From Lentisphaerota bacterium (GTDB taxonomy: Bacteria; Verrucomicrobiota; Kiritimatiellia; RFP12; JAAYNR01), in contig VGWG01000003.1 in assembly GCA_016873675.1 (NCBI GenBank), positions 3,626 to 67,625 on the forward strand: 64,000 nt of DNA. The letters are read 5' to 3'. Of the stretch, positions 10,041-23,992 are shown in pieces (within the stretch, counting starts at the first letter, position 1; each line of letters starts with the position of its first letter). The notes beneath the pieces were generated by a model, which made no database searches, was not told where the DNA came from, and was given only the letters and a program-made list of their open reading frames with translations. The position numbers and the translations under genes were made by a program.

Positions 10041-10097
10041 GACGTCACCTTGTCTTTCTTATTCCTATCGCCTGAAACCTGACACCTGGTCAACGCG

Positions 10098-10472
10098 CTA
10101 CGCCCGCACCGGCGCTGCCAGCGTCGTGCGCGCTGGCGCGTTTGCTCGCCGGGCCGCCCGGCGGGCCTCCTGCAACACCGACTCCAGTGTCTCCAGATAC
10201 TGGTGAAAGCGCGTCAGGCCTCCTCGCGTCAGCACAATCGTGGTGCGCGGCTTATCATTCACAAAAGCCTTTTGCACGCGAACGATCCCCGCCTCCTCCA
10301 GTGTCTTGAGATGGCGGTTGAGATTGCCGTCGGTCAAGCGGCAGGTGTCGCGCAGTTCCGTAAAGGCGAGTCCGTTGCGGGCCGTGCAGAGCGCCGATAA
10401 AATCGCGAGGCGCTTCGGCTCGTGAAACAGGCGCTCCAAGGCACCGGCCGGGTCATGCAGGGAATCCGTCAT
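10098..10472 (-). CDS. Winged helix-turn-helix transcriptional regulator (ArsR/MarR-like).
   Basis: LAILSALCTARNGLAFTELRDTCRLTDGNLNRHLKTLEEAGIV is a typical wHTH recognition helix. Start taken at MTDSLHD. Confidence 0.6.
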   Translation of the reverse strand: MTDSLHDPAGALERLFHEPKRLAILSALCTARNGLAFTELRDTCRLTDGNLNRHLKTLEEAGIVRVQKAFVNDKPRTTIVLTRGGLTRFHQYLETLESVLQEARRAARRANAPARTTLAAPVRA

Positions 10473-11073
10473 CTGCGGCCTCCTTTTCGTCGTTGCCACC
10501 CCGCAACGCCAGTCCGCCAGCCACTTCGCCCACCCCAAAGACCAGGCCCATGGGGCGGGGGTCGGTAAACTGCAGCCCGGGCATCATCAGGCAGACGGCG
10601 CCCGCGACCAGATAAAAGAACCCCACCAGATACACACCCACCGGCAGATTGCGGCGGTAGGCCAGGTGTACGAGTCCATAGCAGAGCATCCAGACGCCGG
10701 GAAGCAGGTCCATGGCGTCCACCCGCCAGAGCGCAATAGAAAGGGCTCCCCCGACACCCAGCGGCGGCAGCGACTCGAGCGCTGGCACCCATTCGGCCCG
10801 CCGTTGCCAGCGACCCGCCCGGCCCATCCAGAGCAGCAGCGCGCCGTAATTCACGCCGCCTGCAAGCACCAGCACCGCCGCCCACCCCGCCAGATGAACC
10901 AGCGGCGCGTCCGGCGGCGCGAAACGCCCCAATACGGCAGCGCCGATCAGGGCGACGCATCCGCCGATCATGCGCGCGCGGGACGAAAAACCACGGAACC
11001 GCAGACGGTCCTGCACGACCCCCTGCATCTCCCGCACCTGCGCCAGCGCCTCGTGTACACCCCTGTCCGCCAT
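10453..11073 (-). CDS. Small membrane protein (about 5 TM), hypothetical.
   Basis: 206 aa and hydrophobic. It overlaps the downstream regulator gene by about 20 nt, suggesting an operon. Confidence 0.45.
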   Translation of the reverse strand: MADRGVHEALAQVREMQGVVQDRLRFRGFSSRARMIGGCVALIGAAVLGRFAPPDAPLVHLAGWAAVLVLAGGVNYGALLLWMGRAGRWQRRAEWVPALESLPPLGVGGALSIALWRVDAMDLLPGVWMLCYGLVHLAYRRNLPVGVYLVGFFYLVAGAVCLMMPGLQFTDPRPMGLVFGVGEVAGGLALRGGNDEKEAADDGFPA

Positions 11074-11134
11074 GCCAATTCCCCTTTCGACGAAACCAGA
11101 TTAGCAAACGGCAAAGCGCTTTGCAACACAAAGT

Positions 11135-11356
11135 TTAACCGGCATAGATCAACGCAGGGGCCCCGGCGGCTTTCTCCCGCTCGCAGAAGATGCGAATCGG
11201 CTTGATGAAATCGGAATTGAATGTCATGGACGATTTGATTTCAACGGGCATCCATGAGCGCCCGTGCTGAACGATAAGATCGATTTCAAAACCCTTGTCG
11301 TCACGCAATGGGGTCTCTTCCTTTATGCGGGAACGGACAACCCATCCCCGGCGCAA
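11135..11356 (-). pseudogene. Remnant C-terminal fragment of a DUF4143/AAA ATP-binding protein.
   Basis: 73 aa (…GFEIDLIVQHGRSWMPVEIKSSMTFNSDF…) matches only the extreme C-terminus of DUF4143 ATPases. There is no upstream N-terminal part. The region is lower-GC. Confidence 0.45.
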
Positions 11357-11455
11357 ATATCAAGTAGAATCTTAAAAATGCGCTTCACCCCGCTTATCAT
11401 CAAGATAGACAGTCGGTAGGCCCGTCCCTATCGTTCCGCCCGATCAGACTTCGTG

Positions 11456-12622
11456 TTAATTCCTTTGTCTGCCCGCCGCGAGGATTGCATGATCTTCTGC
11501 CAGCGAGATAAGAGGAAATAGTTCGTTGTACTGCTTCTGGATGAACATCGGGGACTTCCGTCGAAATAGCCGCTCTGCCTGTCGATCTGCGATTCGCAGC
11601 GTAATCTGTTCATGTGCACAAAGGACCGGTGACACCTGGCCCAGAAGTCCGGTTGCCTGTCGATTGAGGCACCCGCAGAAATGATTGCAGCGTTCCCGTA
11701 TGGCGCATGGGAGGCATGCTTCTTTCTCCGTCGTATTTTCCAAATACAGTCTTTGGCGGCGCACTTCATCCACACCGGTTCGTACGTCTCCGATGCACCA
11801 CTCCGAATCCCCGCCGTCGCCCACAAACTGAACACAAGGGAAGATGCGCCCTGACGGCGCGATGGAAATCTGCCTACGCCCAAGTTCGCACCGTTCGTGC
11901 CGACAACTTCCCGGAAAGATGTGTCCGGCAATCTTCACATCAAATGGACTGAAATAGAACTTCTCTTCTCTGAGGGTCTGCGTCTCATACCAATCAGCCA
12001 ATTCGCCGTATTGCCGTTCAAGTTCTTTGAGTGCGCGCCGCGACCATGGTGTGCCATAGTTCAGGGAGCAAATCAGGTACCTGAATCCGCAAGCGAAGAA
12101 AAATCGGACAGATTCAGCGTACCACGACACCGTCTCGGGGGTCGTCACTAACATGACCGGCGCGTACGGTTTATGTGCGAGCAGAAGGTCGATGACCGGG
12201 CGCAGTCTTTCAAAGGTTCCGTTGCCCGACGCATCGATTCGATGAACATCGTGTGCGGCCTGCACCCCATCATGACTAAGCGCCACGAATACACCTGCGG
12301 TCAGGGGATCGGTCAGAAACGTCTTGTCGAGCAGAGCGCCATTTGTCGTTAGTTTGAAATGGAACAACTGGCCGGTCCTTGCTTCGATATCCCGACAGTA
12401 ACATATCGTCTCTCTAACAAGATCAGGACGCAACAACGGCTCGCCACCGAAGAATATAATCCCCAAGCTTTGCCCCTGCGACTGTTGCGCGCTGAGCCGC
12501 AGTGCGAGGTCAACTGCTGCTCGGGCCGTATCGGCCGTCATGGTGCCGCCCAGATGCGGTGCCGCGTAACAATACCGACAACGGAAGTTGCATTCCGACG
12601 TCAGATGGAGTGTGACGTGCAA
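11456..12622 (-). CDS. Radical SAM/SPASM-domain maturase (anaerobic sulfatase-maturating-enzyme-like).
   Basis: CNFRCRYCY (CxxxCxxC) at the N-terminus and C-terminal Cys clusters (CLPCAIRERCNHFCGC) typical of SPASM/twitch. 388 aa. GC is lower than the surroundings. Confidence 0.75.
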   Translation of the reverse strand: MHVTLHLTSECNFRCRYCYAAPHLGGTMTADTARAAVDLALRLSAQQSQGQSLGIIFFGGEPLLRPDLVRETICYCRDIEARTGQLFHFKLTTNGALLDKTFLTDPLTAGVFVALSHDGVQAAHDVHRIDASGNGTFERLRPVIDLLLAHKPYAPVMLVTTPETVSWYAESVRFFFACGFRYLICSLNYGTPWSRRALKELERQYGELADWYETQTLREEKFYFSPFDVKIAGHIFPGSCRHERCELGRRQISIAPSGRIFPCVQFVGDGGDSEWCIGDVRTGVDEVRRQRLYLENTTEKEACLPCAIRERCNHFCGCLNRQATGLLGQVSPVLCAHEQITLRIADRQAERLFRRKSPMFIQKQYNELFPLISLAEDHAILAAGRQRN

Positions 12623-12623
12623 A

Positions 12624-13460
12624 TCAGATGACTCCCTGTCCTTTCAGCCATTTCACAAAATCCTGCACTTGTTCGCGCAGCTCCTTTTCGCCAATGTCCT
12701 TAGCGGCTTTCTGTCTTGCTTCCCAGAAAGAGCGCCGTTCAGTATCGGTTGCCTCTTTCTTTGGATAATCCATATTAGGAGCAGAGGCGGCCGGGTCATA
12801 GAACACGGCCACAATGGTCTTTCCTTTTGTGTGAGTTAATCCATTGGTTAGGACTTGCGCTGTGGTTTTGAAATCGAAACTCGACACCGAGCACATGCGC
12901 GTGTGATCCTTCCTTTCCCAGTCGGCGAAATCCTTCCGGGTTACGACCTGGTAAGCGACGTCGTGCTGTTTGTCGTACCCGTCCAACACAAGGTCACGCT
13001 TTTGCGCGTTCGGCTTCTGTTTTCTCTCTTTCGTATTTTCGTCCCTCTCATCCAAGAACCCGAATTGATCGGTTACCGGAACCATCATATCCTTCAGCGT
13101 GAGCGCGTCTGCGGAAAAATCAATCCCCGCCTTTCTGGCCTCATCCTGGACCACTTGCCGTGCTTCGTCTTCAGAGAGGAATACGGGGGGATTCACGGCG
13201 ACACATCCGAAGCCACCCCGGCCTTCTCCGTGGATGAAAAGTGGCGCGACGCGAGGTGCGTCGACTGCCGCGTTCTTAGAGTCGCCAGCAACGGCCGGTT
13301 TCGATATAATCAGAGGGATGACCATGCTCAACACTCCCAGTACGAGGCGGTGCTGCCGCCAGCGTTCTGGAATCCATTGCAGTAGTTCCGGATGCTCCAT
13401 CAGGTATTGACGTGTCGGATAACATGGAGTTGTATATCGTCGGACTATTCGCATTTTCAT
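12624..13460 (-). CDS. Hypothetical single-TM protein (low-GC island).
   Basis: Start taken at MKMRIV (aaggaaa RBS). The longest ORF runs to 13538. There is one hydrophobic helix (LVLGVLSMVIPLII) and no recognisable domain. GC is about 52% versus about 66% in the flanks. Confidence 0.45.
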   Translation of the reverse strand: MKMRIVRRYTTPCYPTRQYLMEHPELLQWIPERWRQHRLVLGVLSMVIPLIISKPAVAGDSKNAAVDAPRVAPLFIHGEGRGGFGCVAVNPPVFLSEDEARQVVQDEARKAGIDFSADALTLKDMMVPVTDQFGFLDERDENTKERKQKPNAQKRDLVLDGYDKQHDVAYQVVTRKDFADWERKDHTRMCSVSSFDFKTTAQVLTNGLTHTKGKTIVAVFYDPAASAPNMDYPKKEATDTERRSFWEARQKAAKDIGEKELREQVQDFVKWLKGQGVI

Positions 13461-13762
13461 TGTTTTCCTTTCATAGGGCAACTCCTTAAGACGGTTGAGG
13501 GTCTTGCCTCCCGCGCAAAGCTGCGCCGACACAGGCACACATCATTTTCCAACATACGCCCTTTATTGTCTGCGCAGCGACATGCCGCACCCAAAACGAA
13601 TACTGCAAGTATGGCACGTTCCAGCGAACTTGTATAGCCCTCAAAAAATCCGATTCGGCGGTGCACTTGGTTTTACGCATTACACTGGAATCCTAGAAGG
13701 TTTTACGCTATCATCATCTGCGTCTTCGCGTTGCGCCTGTACTGAATGTGCGCCCATTTGCC

Positions 13763-15205
13763 ATGAACCATACCGTCATCGCCTGGCTCATTCCCGGCAC
13801 GGCCGCGCTGCTCGGCGCGGCCGTTCTGGCGGGCTGGCTTGCGTTTGATCCGGCGACCGATCTGGTCGTGCATGTTCCCGGCATGGATGGCGAACCCGTT
13901 CAGGCTGGCCCGACGGCGTCCGGGGCCACGGTTCGCATCGGCGATCACTTCCGGGCTGGCGATGGCACCGCCGCCGATCTCCCCGGTTCGTGGCCGGGAT
14001 TCCGCGGGGCCCGCACTGACAACCGGTGCGCCGATCCGGTGGCGCTGGCCGACCGCTGGGAGACCAACCAGCCGCCGATCCTGTGGCAGGTACAACTGGG
14101 CGAGGGCCACGCTGGCGCGGCCATCCATCGCGGCCGCGTCTATGTGCTGGATTATGACGAGACCGCGCGGCGTGATCTCTTGCGCTGCCTCTCTCTCGCG
14201 GACGGACGTGAACTCTGGCAGCGGGGGTATCCGGTGGAGGTTCCGCGCAACCACGGCTTTTCGCGTACCGTCCCGGCCGTAACCGACCGCCACGTCGTGA
14301 CGCTCGGCCCCCGCTGCCATGTCATGTGCGTGGATGCCGTCACCGGCGACCTGCGGTGGGGGCTGGACCTGGTCGCGACGTTCGGCTCCAAAGTCCCCAT
14401 GTGGCATGCCGGCCAATGTCCGCTGATTGTTGACGACACGGCCATCCTCGCGCCAGCCGGTCCCGAGACGCTGATGATGGGCGTGGATTGCGCGACGGGG
14501 CAGATCCGCTGGAAAACCCCCAACCCGGACGGTCTGGAGATGTCGCACGCCTCGATCATGCCTGCGGTAATCGGCGGCGAGCGCATGGTTGTCTATGCCG
14601 CGCTGGGCGGGATGGTCGGGGTCAGCGTCGAAGCTGGGCGGGAGGGCACGCTGCTGTGGTTTACACGGGACTGGGACCGCTCGGTAATCGCCCCCTCCCC
14701 GGTCATCCTGGAAGACGGCCGAATCTTCGTCACGGCGGGCTACGGCGGCGGCGGCATGATGCTCCAGGTGACGCGCGAGGGCGAGACGTTCCGCGTCGCC
14801 ACGCTGCAGACCTTCAAGGCCAACCAGGGATTCGCCTCGGAGCAGCAAACCCCCGTTCAGATTGACGGACACCTGTTCGGGGTGCTGCCCAACGATGCGG
14901 GGCCGCTGCGCAATCAGCTCGTCTGCGTCAGCCCCGATGACGCGCGAACCTTCGTCTGGACGAGCGGACGCGATCGCCGGTTCGGCCTCGGCCCCTACCT
15001 CGCCGCCGATGGCAAGCTCTACGTGCTCGCCGATGACGGAATGCTCACCATGCTGCGCGCGACGGCCGAGGGCTACCACGAGCTGGGGCGGAAACACATT
15101 CTGACCGGTCACGACGCCTGGGGCCCCCTGGCGCTGGCCGGCGGGTTGCTGGTCTTGCGCGATTCCACCCGCATGGTGTGCGTGGATTTGCGCGGAGGGC
15201 ACTAA
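13763..15205 (+). CDS. Secreted PQQ-like beta-propeller repeat protein.
   Basis: N-terminal signal/TM (MNHTVIAWLIPGTAALLGAAVLAG). It has repeated G-x-V/L-Y...D-G...W motifs of PQQ/BamB-like 8-blade propellers. Confidence 0.7.
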   Translation: MNHTVIAWLIPGTAALLGAAVLAGWLAFDPATDLVVHVPGMDGEPVQAGPTASGATVRIGDHFRAGDGTAADLPGSWPGFRGARTDNRCADPVALADRWETNQPPILWQVQLGEGHAGAAIHRGRVYVLDYDETARRDLLRCLSLADGRELWQRGYPVEVPRNHGFSRTVPAVTDRHVVTLGPRCHVMCVDAVTGDLRWGLDLVATFGSKVPMWHAGQCPLIVDDTAILAPAGPETLMMGVDCATGQIRWKTPNPDGLEMSHASIMPAVIGGERMVVYAALGGMVGVSVEAGREGTLLWFTRDWDRSVIAPSPVILEDGRIFVTAGYGGGGMMLQVTREGETFRVATLQTFKANQGFASEQQTPVQIDGHLFGVLPNDAGPLRNQLVCVSPDDARTFVWTSGRDRRFGLGPYLAADGKLYVLADDGMLTMLRATAEGYHELGRKHILTGHDAWGPLALAGGLLVLRDSTRMVCVDLRGGH

Positions 15206-16191
15206 TGCACAAGGGAACGACGCTTCTTTTTCTGGCTGGCGTACTGGCGTGTGCGGGCATCGTGGCCAAGCGGGGCTGCGCGACAGTCCCGCGGGCTGGT
15301 GACCGGATGATCGAAGCCAAAATATCCGCCTACGACGCACAGATTGCCTCCTTGGCCGTGATCGACCCAGCCCTGATCCTCTACCGTGAGGCCCGTCCGC
15401 TGGTGCCTCCCGGACTCACGGTTCTGCGCGCGATCGCGGTGGGTCCCGACGACCGGATCTATGCCGGCGGCGGGAGCAATCTGGTCGTCCTGTCAGCACA
15501 GGGAGAAACCATCCGGAGCCAAACGTTCGACGGCGACATCTCCTGTCTGGCCGTGGACGCGAAGGGCCGAATGTATGTCGGACTCGGCACTGCCGTTCGC
15601 GCCTTTGACGCGGAGGGCCGCCCGACCGCAACCTTCGCCGGTATCGGATCGGATGCGATCATCACGTCCCTGGCGGCCGCCGACGACGATGTGTTTGTGG
15701 CAGATGCCCGGAGCCTGACCGTGCTGCGCTACGCGCCCGACGGCGTTCTCAAGAACACGATCACCGGTCGGCACGGTCACCCGGAGGAGCGCGGTTTCAT
15801 TGTGCCGAGCCCCAGCTTCGACCTCATGCTCGGTCAGGGGGAAACCCTGTGGATCGTCAATCCCGGCCGACACCGGCTGGAGGACTACGCCTTTACCGGC
15901 GAGCGAATCGCCGTCTGGCCGGAGCGCCCCGGGATGGGAATTGAGAATTTCTCCGGCTGCTGCAACCCGGCCCATGTCGCCCGCCTCGCCGACGGCTCGG
16001 TCGTGACCAGCGAGAAGGGGCTCTCCCGTGTGAAGGTGTACGCGAAGCGCGGCGGCTTCACGGGCGTGGTCGCCGCCCCGGACCACTTCGACAGCGCCGC
16101 CGCAGGCTTGGACCTGACCGTGGATTCCAACGACCGGATTTTGGTGTGTGACACCGACCGCCTGCAGATCCGCGTGTTTGAGCTGAAATAA
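15205..16191 (+). CDS. NHL-repeat / six-bladed beta-propeller lipoprotein.
   Basis: TAATG overlap with the previous gene. Lipobox FLAGVLAC. Repeated …DG.IYVAD/…RI.V.D blades. Confidence 0.6.
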   Translation: MHKGTTLLFLAGVLACAGIVAKRGCATVPRAGDRMIEAKISAYDAQIASLAVIDPALILYREARPLVPPGLTVLRAIAVGPDDRIYAGGGSNLVVLSAQGETIRSQTFDGDISCLAVDAKGRMYVGLGTAVRAFDAEGRPTATFAGIGSDAIITSLAAADDDVFVADARSLTVLRYAPDGVLKNTITGRHGHPEERGFIVPSPSFDLMLGQGETLWIVNPGRHRLEDYAFTGERIAVWPERPGMGIENFSGCCNPAHVARLADGSVVTSEKGLSRVKVYAKRGGFTGVVAAPDHFDSAAAGLDLTVDSNDRILVCDTDRLQIRVFELK

Positions 16192-16203
16192 GGGGGGAAC
16201 GCC

Positions 16204-16437
16204 ATGACCACCATCAACGAGACCCGAAGTCGCCGCGAATTCATCCGATTCTGCGGCCGTTTGGCTGTGCTGGGCGGCGCCGCGTACTACGCCTCGCGGC
16301 TGTTCCTCCGCGGCCAAGTTTCTTTGCCCGGACAATCCTGCGAGAACCAGGGGATCTGCTCATCCTGTCGCGCCTACTCCCGCTGCGGCCTGCCGCAGGC
16401 GTTGTCCCGGCGCCGGGCACAGGGGGGCCGCTCATGA
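16204..16437 (+). CDS. Small (77 aa) twin-arginine-signal Cys-rich protein.
   Basis: SRREFIRF followed by a hydrophobic stretch (Tat-like), then CENQGICSSCRAYSRCGLP. There is a strong RBS (aagggggga), and the ATGA overlap couples it to the next gene. Confidence 0.5.
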   Translation: MTTINETRSRREFIRFCGRLAVLGGAAYYASRLFLRGQVSLPGQSCENQGICSSCRAYSRCGLPQALSRRRAQGGRS

Positions 16438-17024
16438 CAACACCCCAAAAAACCGACGCGCTGGCGGCTGGCGTCACCCGCAGACAGTTCATTAAGAACG
16501 GGCTGTGGGGACTGGCCGTGGCCGCCGTCGGCGCCGCCACCGGCCTGTCTGCATCGCGCAGCAGCCGATCATCGCGCGTCTGGCAGATCGATCCCACCCT
16601 GTGCGTGCAGTGCGGCCGATGCGAGACCGCGTGCGTGCTGACGCCGTCAGCCGTCAAGGCGGTTCATGCCTACGCCCTCTGCGGCTATTGCAAGCTGTGC
16701 GGCGGCTACCATCAGCCGCAGGCGCAACGGATTGACACGGCCGCCGAGAACCAGCTCTGCCCGGCGGGCGCGCTTATACGCACGTTCGTCGAGGATCCGT
16801 TCTACGAATACACGATCAACGAGGAGCGCTGCATCGGCTGCGCGGTCTGCGTGAAAGGCTGCAGCCAGTTTGGCAACGGCTCACTCTTCCTGCAAGTGCG
16901 GCACGACCGCTGCGTGAACTGCAACGACTGCGCCATCGCGCGCGCCTGCCCCGCAGGCGCGTTCCGGCGCGTGCCAGCCGACCAACCCTATCTTGTGAAG
17001 GGAGCGCCGGATGCGCACGTTTAA
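16434..17024 (+). CDS. Tat-exported NapG/MauM-like ferredoxin (4x[4Fe-4S]).
   Basis: It has a TRRQFIKNGLWGLAVAAVGAA Tat signal and four Cys clusters: CVQCGRCETAC, CGYCKLCGG...CPAG, CIGCAVCVKGC and CVNCNDCAIARACPAG. Confidence 0.8.
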   Translation: MTTPQKTDALAAGVTRRQFIKNGLWGLAVAAVGAATGLSASRSSRSSRVWQIDPTLCVQCGRCETACVLTPSAVKAVHAYALCGYCKLCGGYHQPQAQRIDTAAENQLCPAGALIRTFVEDPFYEYTINEERCIGCAVCVKGCSQFGNGSLFLQVRHDRCVNCNDCAIARACPAGAFRRVPADQPYLVKGAPDAHV

Positions 17025-18282
17025 AGCTCTGTGGATGGGCGTGGGCGTCTGGGTGACAGCGCTGACGCTCCGGGCGGCGGATCGTTTTCCGCGGCCAGAT
17101 TTCAAAACGGACTATGTGTCGCCCGACCTCCTCCTGCCCGGCGCCAGAGGGCCGCTACTGGAGTGGCTGGACGTCGCGGTTCTGGCTGCGGCTCTGGCGC
17201 TGGCGGGCTGGCTCGCCATCCGGAATCGGTCGCGGCGGGGGTTGGTGCTGCTCACCCTCTTCAGCCTGGGTTATTTCGGCTTCTGGCGACGCGGCTGTGT
17301 CTGCGCCGTCGGCGCCGTGCAAAATCTGGCGCTGGGGTGGGCCGATGCCAGTTGCGCGATTCCGCTGACGGTCATCGCGTTTTTTGTTCTGCCGTTGCTG
17401 GCGACGCTGCTCGTCGGCCGCGTGTTCTGCGCGTCGGTCTGTCCTCTGGGCGCGATCCAGGAACTGGCGTTGTGGCGGCCGATCAAGACGCCCATCTGGC
17501 TGAATCACACGCTTGGCCTTCTGCCCTGGGGGTATCTGAGCGTCGCCGTGCTGTTTGCCGCGACGGGCGCGGGTTTCCTGATTTGCGAATGGGATCCCTT
17601 TGTGGGCTTCTTCCGGCTGGGCGCGCCGTTCCATCTGGCGGTCACGGGCGCGCTGTTTCTTCTGGCGAGCCTGTTCATCGGCCGCCCCTACTGCCGGTTT
17701 GCGTGTCCGTACGGCGCGATCCTTGGGCTACTGTCCCGCGTCTCGCGGCGGCACACGACGATCACCCCGGACGCCTGCGTGCAATGCCGCCTCTGCGAGG
17801 ACGCGTGTCCCTACGGCGCCATCCGCAGTCCGCTGCCCGCCGCCGCGCCCGAGTCGCGCGCGACGGGCGTTCGGCGGCTGGCGCTGATTCTGGCGGCCGT
17901 ACCGCTCATCGCCGTCGCCGCCGCGGCAACGGGATATTTTTTCGGCAATCTGCTGTCGCGGGCGCATCCCCGCGTGGCGCTGGCGCTGGAGATTCATCGG
18001 GATGCGGCGCAGCCCATGAGCCTGGAGCGGGAGGCCTTCTTCACATCGGGCCGTGCGACCGTGGCGCTCGACGCCGAGGCGCGCGCGATTCAGAGGCGAT
18101 TTGCTGTGGGTGGCGTCTTTCTCGGCGCGCTGCTGGCGCTCACGGTTGGGGCTCAACTGATCGGACTGGCGCTCTGGCGGTCGCGAACCGACTACGAGCC
18201 GGACCGGGCGCGCTGCTTCAGTTGCGGCCGTTGCTTCGCGTATTGCCCGGTCGGTAGAAAGCGAAAGGAGTCGCCGAAATGA
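17011..18282 (+). CDS. NapH/MauN/NosR-family membrane polyferredoxin.
   Basis: Several TM helices with CxxC motifs, C-terminal CRFACPYGA and CVQCRLCEDACPYGA (2x[4Fe-4S]), and an additional CFSCGRCFAYCP motif. Confidence 0.8.
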   Translation: MRTFKALWMGVGVWVTALTLRAADRFPRPDFKTDYVSPDLLLPGARGPLLEWLDVAVLAAALALAGWLAIRNRSRRGLVLLTLFSLGYFGFWRRGCVCAVGAVQNLALGWADASCAIPLTVIAFFVLPLLATLLVGRVFCASVCPLGAIQELALWRPIKTPIWLNHTLGLLPWGYLSVAVLFAATGAGFLICEWDPFVGFFRLGAPFHLAVTGALFLLASLFIGRPYCRFACPYGAILGLLSRVSRRHTTITPDACVQCRLCEDACPYGAIRSPLPAAAPESRATGVRRLALILAAVPLIAVAAAATGYFFGNLLSRAHPRVALALEIHRDAAQPMSLEREAFFTSGRATVALDAEARAIQRRFAVGGVFLGALLALTVGAQLIGLALWRSRTDYEPDRARCFSCGRCFAYCPVGRKRKESPK

Positions 18283-20015
18283 CGCCCCCACTTTCTCCAG
18301 CGGAATCGCTGCGCGTGGTCATCGGCCGCCGGCTGGCGGCGGTCTCCGCCGTGTTCATCATCATCGTTTCGCTGTTGATGGCGACGAACCGGTATCTGCT
18401 CAATACCATTGATCCGCTCGATACGCCCGCGCTGAAGACGTTATCCGAAAAGCTGGAGCGGGATGGGGAGAATGCCGAGCTCCGGCAACAGGTGCGCGAA
18501 TTGGACTGGCTGGCCCGCCGGGCGTTCTTCGTGCGACAATGGCAGCTTGAGACCGGCGCCAGCCTGCTGGGCGTTGCGGGTGTCGTGTTCCTGTTGTCAT
18601 TACAGCTCATGGCATCGGGACGCCGCCCCACCCCCACCCCGCAACCCGCTTCCGGCAGGGATAATCGCTTTTGGCGGTCCGCCGCGCGCGCCCGGCGGGT
18701 CATCGCGATTAGCGGGGCGCTGATCCTGCTGGCGGCCTGGGGGCTACACCTCCGGATCGGTGGACAGTCACGGACACCCAATCCCATGCCGACGGCACCG
18801 CAGCCGGGACACTCTCCCGCGACGAATCCCCCCCTCGCTCCTGAAACCCTGATCGAACCGCTCGCAGGCGCTGGCGAGTGGCCCTTCTTCCGCGGACCCG
18901 GCGGCCTGGGCATCGCTCGCGAGGCCGATCCCCCCATCGCCTGGGACGGCGCAACCGGCACCGGCGTACTCTGGAAAACGGAGGTGCCGCGGGGCGGATT
19001 CAACTCGCCCGTGGTGTGGGGCAACCGCGTTTACCTGGCTGGCGCCGATGAACAGACGCGCGAAGTGTACGGGTACGACGCCGACACCGGCGTTCGGTTG
19101 TGGACGGCCGACACCGAGGGCGTCCCCGGAGCACCCGCCACGCCGCCAGAGGTCACCTCGGACACCGGTTATGCCGCGCCGTCGCTGGCCACTGACGGCC
19201 GGCGGGTGATTGCGATCTTCGGCACGGGCGTCATCCTTGGCCTCGACGCCGAGGGCCGCCGCCTCTGGGCGCGCCATCTGGGCACGCCCGGCAATCCCTA
19301 CGGACACGCCTCATCCCTGCTGATTCTGCGCAATCTGGTCTTCGTCCAATTCGACCATACCGGCGGCTCATCGGTCAAGGCGCTGGATGTGGAGACTGGA
19401 CAGGACCGCTGGGAACAGTCGCGGGAGGGCGCGATCTCCTGGGCGTCGCCCATCCTCACGGACGCGGACGGACGCCTGCGGCTGATCCTCTCGGCGGCGC
19501 CGATGGTGGCCGCCTATGACGCCCTGACAGGGGCTGAACTCTGGATGCAGGATGTGCTTAGCAACGAGATCGGCGCGTCTCCCGCCTATGCGAACGGCCG
19601 CGTGTTCGCCGCCAACCGGTACGCCCAGGCCGTCGCGCTCGACGTCGCCTCGGGCGACGTGATCTGGTCGTCCACCGATCTGGATTTGCCCGACGCCGGA
19701 AGCCCCGTCGCCGACGGCAACCACCTCTTCATGCCCACGAGCGACGGGACGTTTTCCTGCATCGCTGCGGCGGATGGTTCGCGGATCTGGCGCCACGAGT
19801 TTGACACGGGCGGCTACGGCTCGCCAATCCTCGCCGCAGGCCGCATCTACTGGATCACCGCCGATGGTCGGACGCGCATCTTCAAGGCCGCCGAAACCTT
19901 TGAATTGATCGCTGAACCGGACCTCGGAGAAGCCAGTGTCTGCACCCCGGCCGCCGTCGGTCGCCGCCTCTATATCCGGGGCGTCAAACACCTGTTCTGC
20001 ATCGGACCGAAATGA
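18279..20015 (+). CDS. Membrane-anchored PQQ-like beta-propeller repeat protein.
   Basis: N-terminal TM (VSAVFIIIVSLLMA) and a Pro-rich linker, followed by PQQ/BamB-like repeats (VYGYDADTGVRLW, VKALDVETGQDRW, ...). Confidence 0.7.
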   Translation: MTPPLSPAESLRVVIGRRLAAVSAVFIIIVSLLMATNRYLLNTIDPLDTPALKTLSEKLERDGENAELRQQVRELDWLARRAFFVRQWQLETGASLLGVAGVVFLLSLQLMASGRRPTPTPQPASGRDNRFWRSAARARRVIAISGALILLAAWGLHLRIGGQSRTPNPMPTAPQPGHSPATNPPLAPETLIEPLAGAGEWPFFRGPGGLGIAREADPPIAWDGATGTGVLWKTEVPRGGFNSPVVWGNRVYLAGADEQTREVYGYDADTGVRLWTADTEGVPGAPATPPEVTSDTGYAAPSLATDGRRVIAIFGTGVILGLDAEGRRLWARHLGTPGNPYGHASSLLILRNLVFVQFDHTGGSSVKALDVETGQDRWEQSREGAISWASPILTDADGRLRLILSAAPMVAAYDALTGAELWMQDVLSNEIGASPAYANGRVFAANRYAQAVALDVASGDVIWSSTDLDLPDAGSPVADGNHLFMPTSDGTFSCIAAADGSRIWRHEFDTGGYGSPILAAGRIYWITADGRTRIFKAAETFELIAEPDLGEASVCTPAAVGRRLYIRGVKHLFCIGPK

Positions 20016-20037
20016 AACCCCGCGAAGGCAACTGCCT

Positions 20038-22446
20038 GTGAGCACCCCGAATATCCAACTGGCTGATCCGGTCCGCGCCGAAGATCTCGACCGAATCCTC
20101 GACGAAACCGGACGCAACAGCGCGGCGGTCATTGCTGTGCTGCAGGGGATTCAGGCGCGGTATCGCTATCTGCCCGAGGCGGCCCTGCGCTACGTCTGCG
20201 ACCATTCCGAAATCACGCCGGCCGCCATCGTCGGCGTCTCGACCTTCTACACGCAGTTTCGACACACGCCCGCAGGCAGGCACACAGTCAGCGTCTGCGT
20301 GGGAACGGCCTGCCACGTCAAGGGTGCCAGTGGCATTCTGGCGGCGCTGCGTCGCCATTTGAAGCTCGCCGATGGTGCCGACACCGACGCCGACCGCCGC
20401 TTCACCCTGCGCGAGGTCAATTGCCTCGGTTGCTGCACGCTGGCCCCTGTGGTGCAGGTGGACAGCGTGATCTATGGCTACGCGACTCCCGAGACCGTGG
20501 GCAACATCCTGCAGGATTTTCTCAACCGGGGAGGCGGACAGGACTCGCGCGGCGCCTCCTCCGATCCGTCGCCAGGTCCGTCAGTCGGCGACATCCGCGT
20601 CGGCATGGGCTCCTGTTGCGTGGCCAGCGGCGCTTCGGAGATCGAAGCCGCGCTACATGACCGCGTGTCGGCGCTGCGCCTCCCCGTGCGCATTCAGCGG
20701 GTCGGCTGTCTCGGCCTCTGCTACGAGGAGCCGGTGATCGAAGTGGCGGCGCACGGGCGCCCGTCGCGCCTGTACACGCGGGTGAAGCCGGAAGATATCC
20801 CCGCGATCTTAACCGCGCATTTTCCCCCGCCCAGCCGCTGGACCCGTCTCCGTCACGCCGCCGGACACTGGGTCGAACAGCTCTACACCGACGCGGCTTG
20901 GACGGGCGCGCATTGCGCTGGCATGGACGCGCGCGACCCCCAGATCGCGCCCTATCTCGACCCTCAAGTGCCGATCGCCACCGAGGGCTGCGGCCAGCTC
21001 GATCCGCTCAGTCTCTCCGATTATTGCGGCGCGCACGGGTTCGAAGGATTCCAAGCGGCGCTGCGGCTGCGCCCTGAGGACGTGGTGCGCCAGATCGCCG
21101 ACAGCGGCCTGCGCGGCCGGGGTGGCGGCGGCTATCCGACCGGCCGCAAATGGGGCGAGGTCGCGCGCGAGGTGAACGACGTCAAGTATGTGGTCTGCAA
21201 TGGCGACGAGGGCGACCCGGGCGCGTTCATGGACCGCATGCTACTCGAATCGTTTCCCTACCGCATAATCGAGGGGATGCTGATCGCCGGATACGCAGTC
21301 GGAGCGACACAGGGCGTGCTCTACATCCGCGCCGAATATCCGCTGGCGATCCGGCGCGTCAGCGCGGCACTCGACGCCTGCCGCGCCGCCGGCTGGCTGG
21401 GACCCCACATCCTCGGCAGCGACTTTTCATTCGAACTCACGATCATGACGGGGGCAGGCGCGTTCGTCTGCGGCGAAGAGACCGCACTTATCGCCTCGAT
21501 TGAGGGCAAGCGCGGCATGCCCCGCATGCGGCCGCCCTATCCGTCTCAATGCGGTCTGCACGGCCGCCCCACGCTGGTGAACAACACCGAGACCTTCGCC
21601 CTGATTTCGTGGATCCTGCGCCACGGGCCCGCCGCATTCGCCGCCATCGGCTCCGCGCGCAGCAGAGGCACCAAGGTATTTGCGCTGGCCGGCAAGGTGC
21701 GGCGGGGAGGCCTGATCGAAGTACCCATGGGGATGACGATCCGCCGGGTGATCGACGACATCGGCGGCGGCATCGCCGACGGGCGCCGCCTGAAGGCGGT
21801 GCAGATTGGCGGGCCTTCCGGCGGATGTATTCCCGAACGGCTTGCCGATACGCCCATCGACTACGAGGCGCTGGTCGAGGCGGGCGCCATGATGGGCTCG
21901 GGCGGGCTGGTGGCGCTCGATGACGCAGATTGCATGGTGGAGATCGCCCGCTTCTTTCTCGCCTTCACCCAGCATGAGTCGTGCGGGAAATGCACCTTCT
22001 GCAGGATCGGCACCACCCGCATGCTGGACATACTCGAACGGCTGTGCGGCGGCACGGGCAAACCCTCCGATCTCGATGAGCTCGAGCGTTTGGCGTCCGT
22101 GGTCAAACGCGGCAGCCTCTGCGGTCTGGGAAAGTCCGCGCCTAACCCGGTGCTCACCACGCTGCGCTATTTTCGGGAAGAATACGAGGCGCACGCCGGA
22201 GGCGTATGCCCGGCGGGCCAATGCAAGGCACTGATCTCCTACCAGATCACCGACGACTGCATCGGCTGCACCCGCTGCGCGCAACAGTGTCCGGTCGGCG
22301 CCATCCCGCCGACCCCGTATGAACGGCACGCGATCAACCCCGAAACATGCGTGCGCTGCGACGGCTGCAGGACGGCCTGCCCGGCCGGGGCCGTCGTGGT
22401 GATGTCCGGAAACAGGATTGTGAAACATGGTTACGCTAAACATTGA
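20038..22446 (+). CDS. Fused NuoE-like [2Fe-2S] + NuoF-like (FMN, NADH-binding, [4Fe-4S]) flavoprotein with C-terminal 2x[4Fe-4S] ferredoxin. It is of the HydB/HoxF/FdhB type.
   Basis: It carries CVGTACHVKGA…CLGCC (NuoE), GRGGGGYPTGRKWG, CNGDEGDPGAF and ESCGKCTFCRIGT (NuoF). The C-terminus has CIGCTRCAQQCP and CVRCDGCRTACP. A GTG start at 20038 avoids overlap; the track ORF begins at 19936. Confidence 0.85.
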   Translation: MSTPNIQLADPVRAEDLDRILDETGRNSAAVIAVLQGIQARYRYLPEAALRYVCDHSEITPAAIVGVSTFYTQFRHTPAGRHTVSVCVGTACHVKGASGILAALRRHLKLADGADTDADRRFTLREVNCLGCCTLAPVVQVDSVIYGYATPETVGNILQDFLNRGGGQDSRGASSDPSPGPSVGDIRVGMGSCCVASGASEIEAALHDRVSALRLPVRIQRVGCLGLCYEEPVIEVAAHGRPSRLYTRVKPEDIPAILTAHFPPPSRWTRLRHAAGHWVEQLYTDAAWTGAHCAGMDARDPQIAPYLDPQVPIATEGCGQLDPLSLSDYCGAHGFEGFQAALRLRPEDVVRQIADSGLRGRGGGGYPTGRKWGEVAREVNDVKYVVCNGDEGDPGAFMDRMLLESFPYRIIEGMLIAGYAVGATQGVLYIRAEYPLAIRRVSAALDACRAAGWLGPHILGSDFSFELTIMTGAGAFVCGEETALIASIEGKRGMPRMRPPYPSQCGLHGRPTLVNNTETFALISWILRHGPAAFAAIGSARSRGTKVFALAGKVRRGGLIEVPMGMTIRRVIDDIGGGIADGRRLKAVQIGGPSGGCIPERLADTPIDYEALVEAGAMMGSGGLVALDDADCMVEIARFFLAFTQHESCGKCTFCRIGTTRMLDILERLCGGTGKPSDLDELERLASVVKRGSLCGLGKSAPNPVLTTLRYFREEYEAHAGGVCPAGQCKALISYQITDDCIGCTRCAQQCPVGAIPPTPYERHAINPETCVRCDGCRTACPAGAVVVMSGNRIVKHGYAKH

Positions 22447-23992
22447 CCGGCGCCCGGTGGACGTGCCTGCTGGAACAACCCTGCTGGTCGCGGCCCGCAG
22501 GCTCGGCATCGCCATCCCAACGCTCTGCTTTCGCGATGGCCTGGAGCACGTCACCTCCTGCATGCTCTGCGTGGTCGAGGACGTCCGGACGGGTTGCCTG
22601 CATCCCGCGTGCTCCACCCCGGTTCAGGACGGCATGGACATCGCGACCGCCAGCGGGACGGTACTGGAGGCGCGCCGCACGGCTCTGGAACTGCTGCTGG
22701 GGGATCATCTCGGCGATTGCGAAGGCCCCTGCGCGCGCGCCTGTGCGGCGGGTATGAACATCCCCGCCATGCTGCGCGCGATCCGCGACGGCGATTTGCG
22801 CGAGGCGATTCGCGTCGTCAAGCGGCACATCGCGCTCCCCGCAGCGCTGGGACGGATCTGCCCGGCGCCCTGCGAAAAGGCGTGCCGCCGCGGCACGCAC
22901 GACGCGCCGGTCGCAATCTGCAGGCTCAAGCGTTTCGTGGCCGACGCCGACCTCGCCTCGCCGGACCCGTATCTTCCCGAGCGCCTGGAATCGAGCGGCT
23001 TCCGGGTGGCCGTGGTCGGCGCCGGCCCGGCCGGGCTCTCCGCCGCCTGCGCGCTCGCGCGCGACGGACACGCATGCACCGTGTTTGAAAAAGGCGACAG
23101 GCCCGGCGGAGGCTTGCGCGCGCCGGAGCTGAGTGACACACTGCCGTCGGCCGTGCTCAACGCCGAAATCGCGCAAATCGCCCGCCTCGGCATGACCTTT
23201 GAGACCGGCGTGGAGATCGGCGTCACCTGCTCGCTTCACGACCTCAAACAGCGTTTTGACGCAATCATTCTGGCGTGGGGTGCCAGCGCATCCAGCCTCC
23301 TGGACCCCCTCGGACTCGAAAGTGGTCCGCACGGGATCACAGCAAACTGGAGAACCCACCGCACCGGCGACCCCGTGATCTTTGCGTGCGGCAACGCGGT
23401 GGTGCCTGGCCGACTGGCCGTGCGGGCGGTTGCGCAGGGACAGGCCGCCGCCCTCGCGGTCGGCCAGATGCTGCGCGGCGAGGCGGTCGTCGGAACGCGG
23501 CACCGCTACAATCACCGGCTCAGCGCTGCCCTGACGCCGGACGAGCTCGCGGCTTTCATGACCGGAACTGCGCCGGGGCCACGCACGGAGCCTGCGGATC
23601 ACGCGACGGGCGGCTACTCAACGGACGAGGCACCCGGAGAGGCGGCGCGGTGCCTCCACTGCGATTGCCGCAAACCCGAGGCCTGCCAATTGCGCCGCTA
23701 TGCCGACGACTACGGGGTGAATCCGCGCGGCTGGAAACCGGCCCATCGGCGTCCGGTCGAGATCGTGCGACACGGCAACACCGTCTACGAACCGGGAAAA
23801 TGCATCGCCTGCGGCATCTGCGTGCGCATCGCCAACGCCGCCCGGGAACCGCTGGGCCTAACCTTCATTGGCCGAGGCTTTACCGTGCGGATCGGGGTTC
23901 CCTTCCATGAGTCATTGGAGAAGGGATTGAGCCAAGTCGCCGCCGCCTGCGTTGAAGCCTGCCCCACCGGCGCGCTGGCCCATGACCGGTGA
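22427..23992 (+). CDS. [2Fe-2S] ferredoxin domain fused to a GltD-like NAD(P)H-dependent FAD oxidoreductase (glutamate synthase small-subunit family).
   Basis: The N-terminus has a NuoG-like 2Fe-2S (CFRDGLEHVTSCMLCVV). CPAPCEKACRRG is GltD Fe-S motif. VAVVGAGPAGLSAACALA is a Rossmann FAD/NAD motif. There is a C-terminal Cys cluster. Confidence 0.8.
   Translation: MVTLNIDRRPVDVPAGTTLLVAARRLGIAIPTLCFRDGLEHVTSCMLCVVEDVRTGCLHPACSTPVQDGMDIATASGTVLEARRTALELLLGDHLGDCEGPCARACAAGMNIPAMLRAIRDGDLREAIRVVKRHIALPAALGRICPAPCEKACRRGTHDAPVAICRLKRFVADADLASPDPYLPERLESSGFRVAVVGAGPAGLSAACALARDGHACTVFEKGDRPGGGLRAPELSDTLPSAVLNAEIAQIARLGMTFETGVEIGVTCSLHDLKQRFDAIILAWGASASSLLDPLGLESGPHGITANWRTHRTGDPVIFACGNAVVPGRLAVRAVAQGQAAALAVGQMLRGEAVVGTRHRYNHRLSAALTPDELAAFMTGTAPGPRTEPADHATGGYSTDEAPGEAARCLHCDCRKPEACQLRRYADDYGVNPRGWKPAHRRPVEIVRHGNTVYEPGKCIACGICVRIANAAREPLGLTFIGRGFTVRIGVPFHESLEKGLSQVAAACVEACPTGALAHDR

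What the first reader, a model, noticed from the sequence alone, without database searches (positions are those of the whole stretch)
16204..16437. 77-aa Tat-signal Cys-rich micro-protein wedged between the propeller genes and the NapG-like ferredoxin
The ORF has a strong RBS and an ATGA overlap with the next gene, so it is probably real. It has a twin-arginine motif (SRREFIRF + hydrophobic h-region) followed by only about 40 mature residues containing CENQGICSSCRAYSRCGLP.

The next gene carries its own, different Tat signal, so this is not a split gene. A Tat-exported peptide with a C-x5-C-x2-C-x5-C tail could be a small metallo- or cofactor-carrier subunit, a chaperone for the neighbouring Fe-S protein, or a post-translationally modified peptide (a SPASM radical-SAM enzyme is encoded 4 kb away).
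Basis: seen in the sequence. Interest (0 to 1): 0.6.

Follow-up and report, generated by a model that had tools for sequence, protein, structure and literature searches.

The report
Conserved Tat-signal four-cysteine mini-protein
The 77-residue ORF is a real gene from a large, unnamed family of tiny export-signal proteins with four invariant cysteines, always encoded beside, and in one lineage fused to, an NHL propeller protein in an uncharacterised periplasmic electron-transfer operon.

Summary
ORF 16204-16437(+) exists, with a G-rich ribosome-binding site, an SRREFIR twin-arginine motif and an ATGA overlap with the next gene.

It is not a chance ORF. A profile search finds 988 cluster representatives, nearly all 70-120 aa. 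All 157 examined carry C-x5-C-x2-C-x5-C-x-LP-x-A-x-S-x-[KR]. The RR motif usually lies 36 residues upstream of the first Cys. No Pfam, NCBIfam or PDB family matches.

In 92 of 99 non-redundant loci the gene lies next to an NHL propeller gene; the other 7 are cut by contig ends. The operon is PQQ-like propeller, NHL, small protein, Tat NapG-like ferredoxin, NapH-like membrane Fe-S protein, second propeller, NuoE/F fusion, GltD-like. One Verrucomicrobia clade (at least 25 clusters) fuses it as Tat signal, Cys4 module, NHL.

Best reading (inferred): a Tat-targeted, probably membrane-tethered small subunit of the NHL enzyme. Its Cys4 loop probably binds a metal or [4Fe-4S] centre and relays electrons from the NapG-like ferredoxin.

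The RiPP idea is not supported. The SPASM enzyme sits in a low-GC insertion absent from every other locus.

Metal binding, signal cleavage and the system's substrate are untested.

The parts
16190..16199 (+). Shine-Dalgarno-like G-rich run (AAGGGGGGAA) ending about 6 nt before the ATG
   Evidence: Sequence. Purine-rich equivalents sit at the same position in 7 orthologous loci.
16204..16437 (+). Gene for the 77-aa Tat-signal Cys4 mini-protein
   Evidence: ORF. Nine close homologues. 988 family representatives. dN/dS 0.24-0.63 with no indels.
16228..16248 (+). Twin-arginine motif S-R-R-E-F-I-R (residues 9-15)
   Evidence: R10, R11 and F13 are invariant in alignment A3. An RR-type motif is found in 264 of 273 family members. 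The NCBIfam TAT_signal profile scores 12.6 bits, below its 16.7-bit cut-off.
16258..16311 (+). Invariant R19, a short A/G/L-rich hydrophobic segment, and a basic cluster (residues 19-36): signal h-region or signal-anchor helix
   Evidence: Column profile. The uncharged run is 15-16 residues in most members and 12 here. AlphaFold2 predicts a helix for residues 6-37 with pLDDT 92-96 over residues 11-30.
16339..16413 (+). Cys4 module C46-x5-C52-x2-C55-x5-C61-GLPQALSRR (residues 46-70)
   Evidence: The four Cys and the Pro are invariant in 157 of 157 sequences, Leu in 155, Ala in 153 and Ser in 149. AlphaFold2 confidence is about 50 here.
16434..16437 (+). ATGA stop/start overlap with the ferredoxin gene (translational coupling)
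   Evidence: ATGA overlaps occur in 55 of 97 related loci.
15178..16191 (+). NHL six-bladed propeller gene, the constant neighbour and fusion partner. The true start is probably the ATG at 15205.
   Evidence: Pfam NHL. Adjacent to the small gene in 92 of 99 loci. Fused to it in at least 25 clusters. The propeller is modelled at pLDDT above 90 and resembles NHL domains in the PDB.
16434..17024 (+). Tat-signal NapG-like ferredoxin with four Cys4 cluster motifs
   Evidence: Pfam Fer4 families; NCBIfam TAT_signal and a weak MauM/NapG match. Conserved in all loci long enough to include it.
17011..18282 (+). NapH-like polytopic membrane Fe-S protein
   Evidence: Pfam Fer4_5 twice; NCBIfam NapH/MauN at E = 3e-15, below the cut-off. 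Syntenic.
13748..15205 (+). First PQQ_2 (BamB-like) propeller gene of the operon
   Evidence: Pfam PQQ_2. Syntenic.
18279..20015 (+). Second PQQ_2 propeller gene, with an N-terminal membrane region
   Evidence: Pfam PQQ_2. Syntenic.
19936..23992 (+). NuoE/NuoF fusion (to 22446; start uncertain) and GltD-like Fe-S flavoprotein (22427-23992): the cytoplasmic NAD(P)H module of the operon
   Evidence: Pfam domains of the orthologues. Synteny.

Best explanation
The ORF encodes a genuine, widely conserved small subunit of an uncharacterised periplasmic redox system.

Shown:
- It belongs to a large family of 70-120-aa proteins with a fixed layout: a twin-arginine motif, an invariant Arg nine residues after the RR pair, a 12-16-residue A/G/L-rich segment, a basic cluster, a short linker, then the invariant loop C-x5-C-x2-C-x5-C-x-LP-x-A-x-S-x-[KR].
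- It is always encoded in one operon: PQQ-like propeller, NHL propeller, Tat-signal NapG-like tetra-cluster ferredoxin, NapH-like membrane Fe-S protein, a second propeller, and a NuoE/F plus GltD-like NAD(P)H module.
- It is always next to the NHL gene, and in one clade it is fused to the N-terminus of the NHL propeller, where it replaces that protein's own signal.

Inferred:
- The protein is targeted by the Tat pathway after acquiring a cofactor in the cytoplasm.
- The N-terminal helix probably stays attached as a signal-anchor. It would tether the NHL enzyme at the membrane beside the NapH-like and NapG-like proteins.
- The 16-residue Cys4 loop binds a metal centre, most likely a [4Fe-4S] cluster. 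This centre would be the last electron-transfer step in the chain NAD(P)H module, NapH-like protein, NapG-like ferredoxin, Cys4 module, NHL propeller (or the reverse direction).

The substrate of the system is unknown.
For: The gene is real:
- Orthologues of identical length with dN/dS 0.24-0.63.
- Conserved ribosome-binding site.
- 988 profile hits, 149 of them at E <= 1e-10, almost all 70-120 aa.
- 834 hits in a second database, all unnamed.

The motif is invariant: four Cys and the Pro in 157 of 157 sequences.

The layout is fixed: the RR-to-first-Cys distance is 36 residues in 186 of 264 members and 34-38 in 249 of 264. The cleavable signal of the neighbouring NHL protein varies from 25 to 41.

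Operon membership:
- 29 loci are NHL-small-ferredoxin, 63 are small-NHL-ferredoxin, and 7 are cut by contig ends, out of 99 non-redundant loci.
- Source records name Lentisphaerae, Kiritimatiellia, Verrucomicrobiia, Phycisphaerae and Pirellulales.

Fusion:
- At least 25 clusters of about 360 aa read RR signal, Cys4 loop, NHL propeller.
- In two such loci the fusion occupies the place of both genes in the same operon.

Periplasmic side and Tat targeting:
- In the small-NHL arrangement the NHL protein has its own RR signal in 63 of 63 loci.
- The ferredoxin has one too.
- The fusion uses the small protein's RR segment as the only signal.

Cofactor:
- The Cys spacing is one residue off the Cys-X6-Cys-X2-Cys-X5-Cys [4Fe-4S] loop of endonuclease III/MutY (PMC11138216).
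- A sub-clade of the fusions has exactly C-x6-C-x2-C-x5-C.
- AlphaFold2 leaves the loop at pLDDT about 50 despite 125 aligned sequences, as expected for a fold that needs a cofactor or a partner.
- Every other redox protein in the operon is Fe-S or flavin based, and none has a CxxCH haem motif.

General framework: NapH-like proteins serve as modular transmembrane electron conduits for extracytosolic enzymes (PMC8238504).
Against: - No experiment and no structural model shows metal binding. AlphaFold2 gave low confidence for the Cys loop both alone and in the fusion, so docking onto the propeller is not supported computationally.
- The curated Tat-signal profile is not passed: 12.6 bits against a 16.7-bit cut-off for the window protein, and only 20 of 125 members match it even weakly.
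- The hydrophobic stretch (12-16 residues) is short for a membrane anchor. A loose small-x-small pattern before the first Cys occurs in 180 of 264 members, so cleavage cannot be excluded.
- In the window's own lineage the NHL protein has a Sec-type or lipoprotein-like N-terminus rather than an RR signal. The propeller therefore does not universally need folded export.
- Four cysteines could equally bind Zn or Fe alone, or form two disulfides.
Confidence: 0.5

Rival explanations
1. Assembly factor or metallochaperone. The small membrane-tethered Cys4 protein transiently holds Fe, an Fe-S cluster or another metal and delivers it to the NHL propeller or the NapG/NapH-like proteins. This would parallel the proposed role of NqrM, a roughly 70-aa single-helix protein with four conserved Cys, in Na+-NQR maturation (own knowledge).
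For: - Same size class and layout: one N-terminal helix plus four invariant Cys.
- The NHL family has five near-invariant Cys of its own (C136, FCGCCNP, C290) that could form an acceptor site.
- The Cys loop does not fold on its own in AlphaFold2.
Against: - A whole clade fuses the module permanently, one to one, to the N-terminus of the NHL propeller. That fits a subunit or domain better than a transient factor.
- There is no sequence match to NqrM or to any maturation family.
- Translational coupling within the structural operon is conserved.
Confidence: 0.2
2. Metal-free tether or thiol relay. The N-terminal segment only anchors or targets. The four Cys form two disulfides that make a rigid knot binding the NHL propeller, or a CxxC redox-active dithiol that exchanges with the propeller's vicinal Cys.
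For: - The motif contains a C-x2-C pair.
- The NHL partner has a conserved CGCC motif.
- In the window lineage the NHL protein seems to be exported unfolded by a Sec-type signal.
- The weak PDB profile matches include a disulfide-knotted conotoxin at E = 8.9, which is not significant.
Against: - The RR motif is retained in more than 95% of members in all lineages. This is hard to explain for a peptide that would fold and oxidise only after export, because Sec would suffice.
- All neighbouring carriers are Fe-S proteins.
- The symmetric 5-2-5 spacing followed by a helix resembles a cluster-binding loop.
Confidence: 0.17
3. RiPP precursor. The N-terminal part is a leader and the Cys-rich tail is cross-linked by the radical-SAM/SPASM enzyme encoded 3.6 kb upstream.
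For: - A SPASM radical-SAM gene lies at 11456-12622(-). Its best matches are PapB-type ranthipeptide and other Cys-peptide maturases, all below the family cut-offs.
- The tail is Cys-rich.
Against: - The radical-SAM gene and its neighbour are on the opposite strand, in a 2.5-kb block of 53-55% GC inside 65-70% GC DNA.
- Neither gene has a homologue in any of the other loci examined, including the closest one (81% identical small protein).
- The peptide is invariant across phyla and locked into a redox operon.
- It is fused to a propeller in one clade.
Confidence: 0.03
4. Spurious ORF, or a decaying duplicate of the ferredoxin's signal peptide.
For: - Many chance ORFs exist in this GC-rich DNA.
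- Both proteins start MTT...RR.FI.
Against: - Purifying selection, a fixed length of 77 aa, and about a thousand family representatives.
- Similarity to the ferredoxin is limited to the RR motif (E = 0.13).
Confidence: 0.01

Closest known systems
NCBIfam TIGR02811 'formate dehydrogenase region TAT target'
   Same: A protein of about 70 aa consisting of a twin-arginine signal plus a short conserved tail, encoded inside the operon of a periplasmic oxidoreductase, with unknown role. 47 of 125 family members give weak matches.
   Different: The matches cover only profile positions 1-40, the signal part, at 12-15 bits against a 48.45-bit cut-off. To my knowledge the conserved tail of TIGR02811 is Tyr/His-rich with no Cys motif. 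The operon partner here is an NHL propeller, not formate dehydrogenase.
[4Fe-4S] cluster loop of endonuclease III / MutY (Cys-X6-Cys-X2-Cys-X5-Cys)
   Same: Four Cys within 17-18 residues near a C-terminus, followed by a helix. The spacing differs by one residue, and is identical in a sub-clade of the fusion proteins.
   Different: No detectable homology and no Pfam hit. Those enzymes are cytoplasmic DNA glycosylases, and the loop there is part of a large domain.
HiPIP and Rieske-type Tat substrates (own knowledge)
   Same: Small Fe-S proteins that acquire their cluster in the cytoplasm and use the Tat pathway. Rieske proteins keep the Tat signal as a membrane anchor.
   Different: The HiPIP Cys spacing (Cys-X2-Cys-X8-16-Cys-X10-13..Cys; PMC11138216) and the Rieske CxH/CxxH ligands are absent. 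The folded part here is only about 30 residues. No sequence match.
N-terminal FS0 [4Fe-4S] domain of Tat-exported Mo/W-bisPGD enzymes
   Same: The fusion proteins have the same order: Tat signal, then a short Cys4 segment, then the catalytic domain. The best PDB profile hit aligns the family to the signal plus the first Cys motif of a formate dehydrogenase FdhA.
   Different: That hit is not significant (E = 1.5). The Cys spacing differs, and the catalytic domain here is a six-bladed NHL propeller.
NqrM (DUF539), Na+-NQR maturation factor (own knowledge)
   Same: A protein of about 70 aa with one N-terminal helix and four conserved Cys, encoded with a membrane redox complex.
   Different: No sequence match. 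NqrM has no RR motif. The family here is fused to a structural subunit in one clade.
NapGH / MauMN-type and other NapH-like extracytosolic electron-transfer systems
   Same: The operon contains a Tat NapG-like tetra-cluster ferredoxin and a NapH-like membrane protein. NapH-like modules are known to serve many periplasmic enzymes, most of unknown reaction (PMC8238504). To my knowledge, mau clusters likewise combine a propeller subunit, a small Cys-rich subunit and MauM/MauN.
   Different: Both proteins score far below the NapG/NapH family cut-offs. No nitrate reductase, flavinylation gene or cytochrome is present. The small protein has no Trp, so it cannot carry a TTQ/CTQ-type cofactor.

Membership tests
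Twin-arginine (Tat) signal peptides (NCBIfam TIGR01409) | S/T-R-R-x-F-L-K consensus at the end of a polar n-region | tested here: met
   S-R-R-E-F-I-R at residues 9-15. R10, R11 and F13 are invariant in A3. An RR-type motif occurs in 264 of 273 members.
Twin-arginine (Tat) signal peptides (NCBIfam TIGR01409) | Score above the curated profile cut-off | tested here: not met
   12.6 bits against a 16.7-bit cut-off. Only 20 of 125 members match at E <= 1. Short signals often miss this cut-off, so this weakens the reading without excluding it.
Twin-arginine (Tat) signal peptides (NCBIfam TIGR01409) | Moderately hydrophobic h-region followed by a c-region with an A-x-A peptidase site | tested here: inconclusive
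   The h-region is present: 12-16 uncharged residues, mean Kyte-Doolittle hydropathy 1.87, followed by a basic cluster. No conserved A-x-A was found. A loose small-x-small pattern occurs in 180 of 264 members.
Twin-arginine (Tat) signal peptides (NCBIfam TIGR01409) | Tat-dependent export | not testable with these tools
   Needs a reporter assay in tat mutants. SignalP and TatP were not available.
TIGR02811 formate dehydrogenase region TAT target | Profile score of at least 48.45 bits, including the conserved C-terminal tail | tested here: not met
   12-15 bits over profile positions 1-40 only.
Ferredoxin-type 4Fe-4S domains (Pfam Fer4 families) and HiPIP | CxxCxxCxxxCP or HiPIP Cys spacing, and a profile match | tested here: not met
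   No Pfam or NCBIfam hit at E <= 0.1. The spacing is 5-2-5.
Fe-S or metal-binding protein (generic) | Four invariant Cys at a spacing compatible with a known cluster loop | tested here: met
   Invariant in 157 of 157. The spacing is one residue off the endonuclease III/MutY motif, and identical to it in a sub-clade.
Fe-S or metal-binding protein (generic) | Bound metal or cluster | not testable with these tools
   Needs metal analysis and spectroscopy.
NqrM (PF04400) | Profile match | tested here: not met
   No Pfam hit.
RiPP precursor of a radical-SAM/SPASM maturase | Conserved co-occurrence of the precursor with its maturase | tested here: not met
   The maturase gene is absent from all other loci examined and lies in a low-GC insertion.
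Subunit of the NHL / NapG-like / NapH-like operon | Conserved adjacency, same strand, translational coupling | tested here: met
   92 of 99 loci are adjacent to the NHL gene and the rest are truncated. 55 of 97 have an ATGA overlap with the next gene.
Subunit of the NHL / NapG-like / NapH-like operon | Gene fusion with a partner (Rosetta-stone evidence) | tested here: met
   At least 25 fusion clusters, in the same operon position.
Subunit of the NHL / NapG-like / NapH-like operon | Physical complex | not testable with these tools
   Single-chain AlphaFold2 of the fusion left the module at pLDDT about 40. No multimer prediction was available.

The most novel reading that the evidence does not exclude
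The family is a new, minimal (about 30-residue) Tat-exported [4Fe-4S] module. It plugs an NHL beta-propeller, a fold not known as a redox enzyme, into a haem-free and flavin-free NapG/NapH-type transmembrane wire fed by an Stn/Nfn-like NAD(P)H module. That would define a previously unrecognised periplasmic reductase or oxidase system that is widespread in Verrucomicrobiota, Kiritimatiellia/Lentisphaerae and Planctomycetota of anoxic soils and sediments.
Probability: 0.3. Interest if true: 0.75.

Novelty: new variant of a known kind. Interest (0 to 1): 0.55.

Why it matters
Small proteins are routinely missed or left as 'hypothetical'. This one is a universally retained part of an eight-gene redox operon found in about a thousand sequence clusters from environmentally abundant PVC-group bacteria, and no curated family describes it.

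If the Cys4 loop is a cluster site, it would be among the smallest Tat-exported Fe-S modules. It would also mark the NHL propeller as the catalytic end of a new periplasmic electron-transfer chain.

The natural fusion gives a ready-made construct for expression, spectroscopy and structure determination. The operon gives a defined target for finding the unknown substrate.

Tried and rejected
- Pfam and NCBIfam scans of the 77-aa protein found nothing at E <= 0.1.
- A PDB profile search gave only non-significant hits: FdhA signal region E = 1.5, UBR1 E = 2.3, a conotoxin E = 8.9.
- AlphaFold2 of the protein with 125 homologues gave a confident N-terminal helix, but the Cys loop stayed at pLDDT about 50.
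- AlphaFold2 of a natural fusion modelled the propeller well (above 90) but left the Cys4 module at about 40, so it gave no docking information.
- Foldseek of that model returned only generic NHL and WD40 propellers, with no functional clue.
- Sequence searches of the NHL and NapH-like proteins against the PDB gave only eukaryotic NHL domains and generic ferredoxin repeats.
- Literature searches for the operon or the motif found no description. They gave only the general NapH-like framework and the endonuclease III motif.
- Rejected: RiPP precursor, because the maturase is not conserved.
- Rejected: relic of the ferredoxin signal, because there is no similarity beyond RR.
- Rejected: hitchhiker signal for an unsignalled NHL protein, because unfused NHL proteins have their own signals.
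- P0010, a 668-aa repetitive hit, was set aside as a translated tandem repeat.

Full report
**1. The observation**

The ORF at 16204-16437 (+) is present as described and encodes 77 residues.
- A G-rich Shine-Dalgarno run ends 6 nt before the ATG. Equivalent purine-rich sites are found in seven orthologous loci.
- The stop codon overlaps the start of the next gene as ATGA.
- Residues 9-15 read S-R-R-E-F-I-R, followed by a short A/G/L-rich stretch and a basic cluster.
- The tail holds C46-x5-C52-x2-C55-x5-C61-GLPQALSRR.
- The downstream gene has its own RR signal (TRRQFIK) and sixteen Cys in four ferredoxin-type motifs.

ORFs of this length are common by chance in this GC-rich DNA: one search lists 112 of at least 50 aa in 15 kb. 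The case for a gene therefore rests on conservation.

**2. It is a real gene and a large unnamed family**

- Nine close homologues (53-100% identity) keep the RR pair, the four Cys and GLPQALSRR. The identical protein is annotated only as a hypothetical protein of a Lentisphaerae MAG.
- Eight orthologous genes are all exactly 231 nt with no indels. dN/dS against the window gene is 0.24-0.63 for the seven pairs where dS is not saturated.
- A profile search of 1.84 billion cluster representatives found 988 proteins at E <= 0.001 and 149 at E <= 1e-10. Nearly all are 70-120 aa.
- A second database gave 834 hits, none with a name or a Pfam domain.
- Anchoring 157 sequences on the first Cys shows the four Cys and the Pro in 157 of 157, Leu in 155, Ala in 153, Ser in 149, and Lys/Arg two positions later in 155.
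- The RR motif lies 36 residues before the first Cys in 186 of 264 members and 34-38 in 249 of 264. The cleavable signal of the neighbouring NHL protein varies from 25 to 41.
- No Pfam, NCBIfam or PDB family matches.
- Weak NCBIfam matches to the 'formate dehydrogenase region TAT target' family cover only its signal part, at 12-15 bits against a 48-bit cut-off.

**3. Genomic context**

Loci came from encoding-contig look-ups, a scan of species-representative genomes and a metagenome scan. Window proteins were compared to all of them.

Among 99 non-redundant loci:

| Arrangement | Loci |
|---|---|
| NHL, small, ferredoxin (as in the window) | 29 |
| small, NHL, ferredoxin | 63 |
| Cut by a contig end next to the small gene | 7 |

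- Wherever the contig is long enough, the operon is the same: PQQ_2 propeller, NHL propeller and small gene (in either order), Tat NapG-like ferredoxin, NapH-like membrane Fe-S protein, second PQQ_2 propeller, NuoE/NuoF fusion, GltD-like flavoprotein.
- Source records name Lentisphaerae, Kiritimatiellia, Verrucomicrobiia, Phycisphaerae and Pirellulales.
- An ATGA overlap with the next gene occurs in 55 of 97 loci.
- No protein of the operon has a CxxCH haem motif.

**4. Fusion with the NHL propeller**

- One representative (P0133, 363 aa) joins the small protein to an NHL propeller.
- Searching with it found at least 25 clusters of about 360 aa that carry the Cys4 motif in front of the propeller. 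They come from several sources and long contigs.
- A further group has C-x6-C-x2-C-x5-C spacing.
- In two such loci the fusion gene sits between the first propeller gene and the ferredoxin gene, and no separate small gene is present.
- In the fusion, the small protein's RR segment replaces the NHL protein's own signal.

This is strong comparative evidence that the small protein and the NHL propeller act together, in the same compartment, at one-to-one stoichiometry.

**5. Which side of the membrane, and which export route**

- In all 63 loci of the small-NHL arrangement, the unfused NHL protein has its own RR signal with a typical small-residue cleavage region. The ferredoxin also has one.
- In the window's arrangement, the NHL protein instead begins with a Sec-type, anchor-like or lipoprotein-like segment. 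The small protein keeps its RR motif there too.
- The NHL domain and the Cys4 module are therefore periplasmic.
- Retention of RR in the small protein across all lineages argues for Tat export, which is typical of proteins that acquire a cofactor in the cytoplasm (own knowledge).
- Caveats: the curated Tat profile is not passed. The hydrophobic stretch is only 12-16 residues. No conserved A-x-A site exists.
- The fixed length of the N-terminal part, an invariant Arg at position 19 and a confidently predicted helix suggest that the segment is kept as a signal-anchor. This is an inference.

**6. What the Cys4 loop does**

- The spacing C-x5-C-x2-C-x5-C followed by a helix is one residue off the Cys-X6-Cys-X2-Cys-X5-Cys loop that binds the [4Fe-4S] cluster of endonuclease III and MutY (PMC11138216). 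It is identical to that loop in one fusion sub-clade.
- AlphaFold2 cannot fold the loop either alone or in the fusion (pLDDT 40-50). That fits dependence on a cofactor or a partner, but it is not positive evidence.
- All neighbouring carriers are Fe-S proteins.
- NapH-like proteins are known as modular transmembrane electron conduits for extracytosolic enzymes, most of unknown reaction (PMC8238504).

The most economical model is a Tat-exported, membrane-tethered mini Fe-S subunit that links the NapG-like ferredoxin to the NHL propeller. The propeller itself carries five near-invariant Cys (C136, FCGCCNP, C290).

Three alternatives remain open: an NqrM-like metal-delivery factor, a Zn or disulfide knot that merely tethers the propeller, and a dithiol relay.

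**7. Rejected readings**

- **RiPP precursor.** The SPASM enzyme and the adjacent 304-aa ORF lie in a 53-55% GC block inside 65-70% GC DNA. In the closest syntenic locus the flanking genes are about 1 kb apart, and neither gene has a homologue in any other locus.
- **Relic of the ferredoxin signal.** Similarity is limited to the RR motif (E = 0.13).
- **Hitchhiker signal for the NHL protein.** Unfused NHL proteins have their own signals.

**8. Verdict**

- The RiPP reading is not supported.
- The family is uncharacterised and absent from curated libraries, but it fits a known kind: small Tat-signal subunits of periplasmic redox enzymes.
- Metal content, signal cleavage and the reaction catalysed by the operon are unknown and need experiments.

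Noticed in passing
window 11000-13600: A block of about 2.5 kb has 53-55% GC inside 65-70% GC DNA. It carries a radical-SAM/SPASM gene (11456-12622, minus; best match PapB-type ranthipeptide maturase, below cut-off), a 304-aa ORF with no family (12624-13538, minus) and a 73-aa fragment (11135-11356, minus). The block is absent from the closest syntenic locus and from all other loci, so it looks like a lineage-specific insertion. No precursor peptide was looked for.
   Followed up: partly
window 15178-16191 and alignment A5: The NHL propeller family of this operon has five near-invariant Cys (C136, F-C-G-C-C-N-P, C290-EKGLPRVK in P0133 numbering) and many invariant polar residues. These suggest a metal or redox site on a fold not known for redox chemistry.
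   Followed up: partly
window 15178-15260; loci L014-L100: The export signal of the NHL protein differs by lineage. It is a twin-arginine signal in all 63 'small-NHL' loci. In the window-type 'NHL-small' loci it is a Sec-type, anchor-like or lipoprotein-like N-terminus. The annotated GTG start at 15178 is probably wrong: the ATG at 15205 overlaps the upstream stop.
   Followed up: partly
window 16189-16206: The NHL stop codon (TAA, 16189-16191) and the small ORF are in the same reading frame, 12 nt apart, so one stop codon separates them. The spacing and frame are not conserved in other loci, and the natural fusions have the opposite domain order.
   Followed up: no
window 19936-23992: The operon ends with a NuoE/NuoF fusion and a GltD-like Fe-S flavoprotein. 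To my knowledge this combination resembles Stn/Nfn-type NAD(P)H transhydrogenase modules. Here it is coupled to a NapH-like membrane protein instead of a soluble ferredoxin. The NuoE/F start codon is uncertain.
   Followed up: no
protein P0010: A 668-aa repetitive protein with ten weak matches to the family profile (repeats containing CGLPQG). It looks like a translated tandem DNA repeat rather than a family member.
   Followed up: no
window 8877-11073 (minus strand): Three divergently oriented genes are conserved next to the operon in the closest relative (L001): a 387-aa membrane protein, a 146-aa HTH regulator and a 206-aa membrane protein. The HTH protein could be the operon's regulator.
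   Followed up: no
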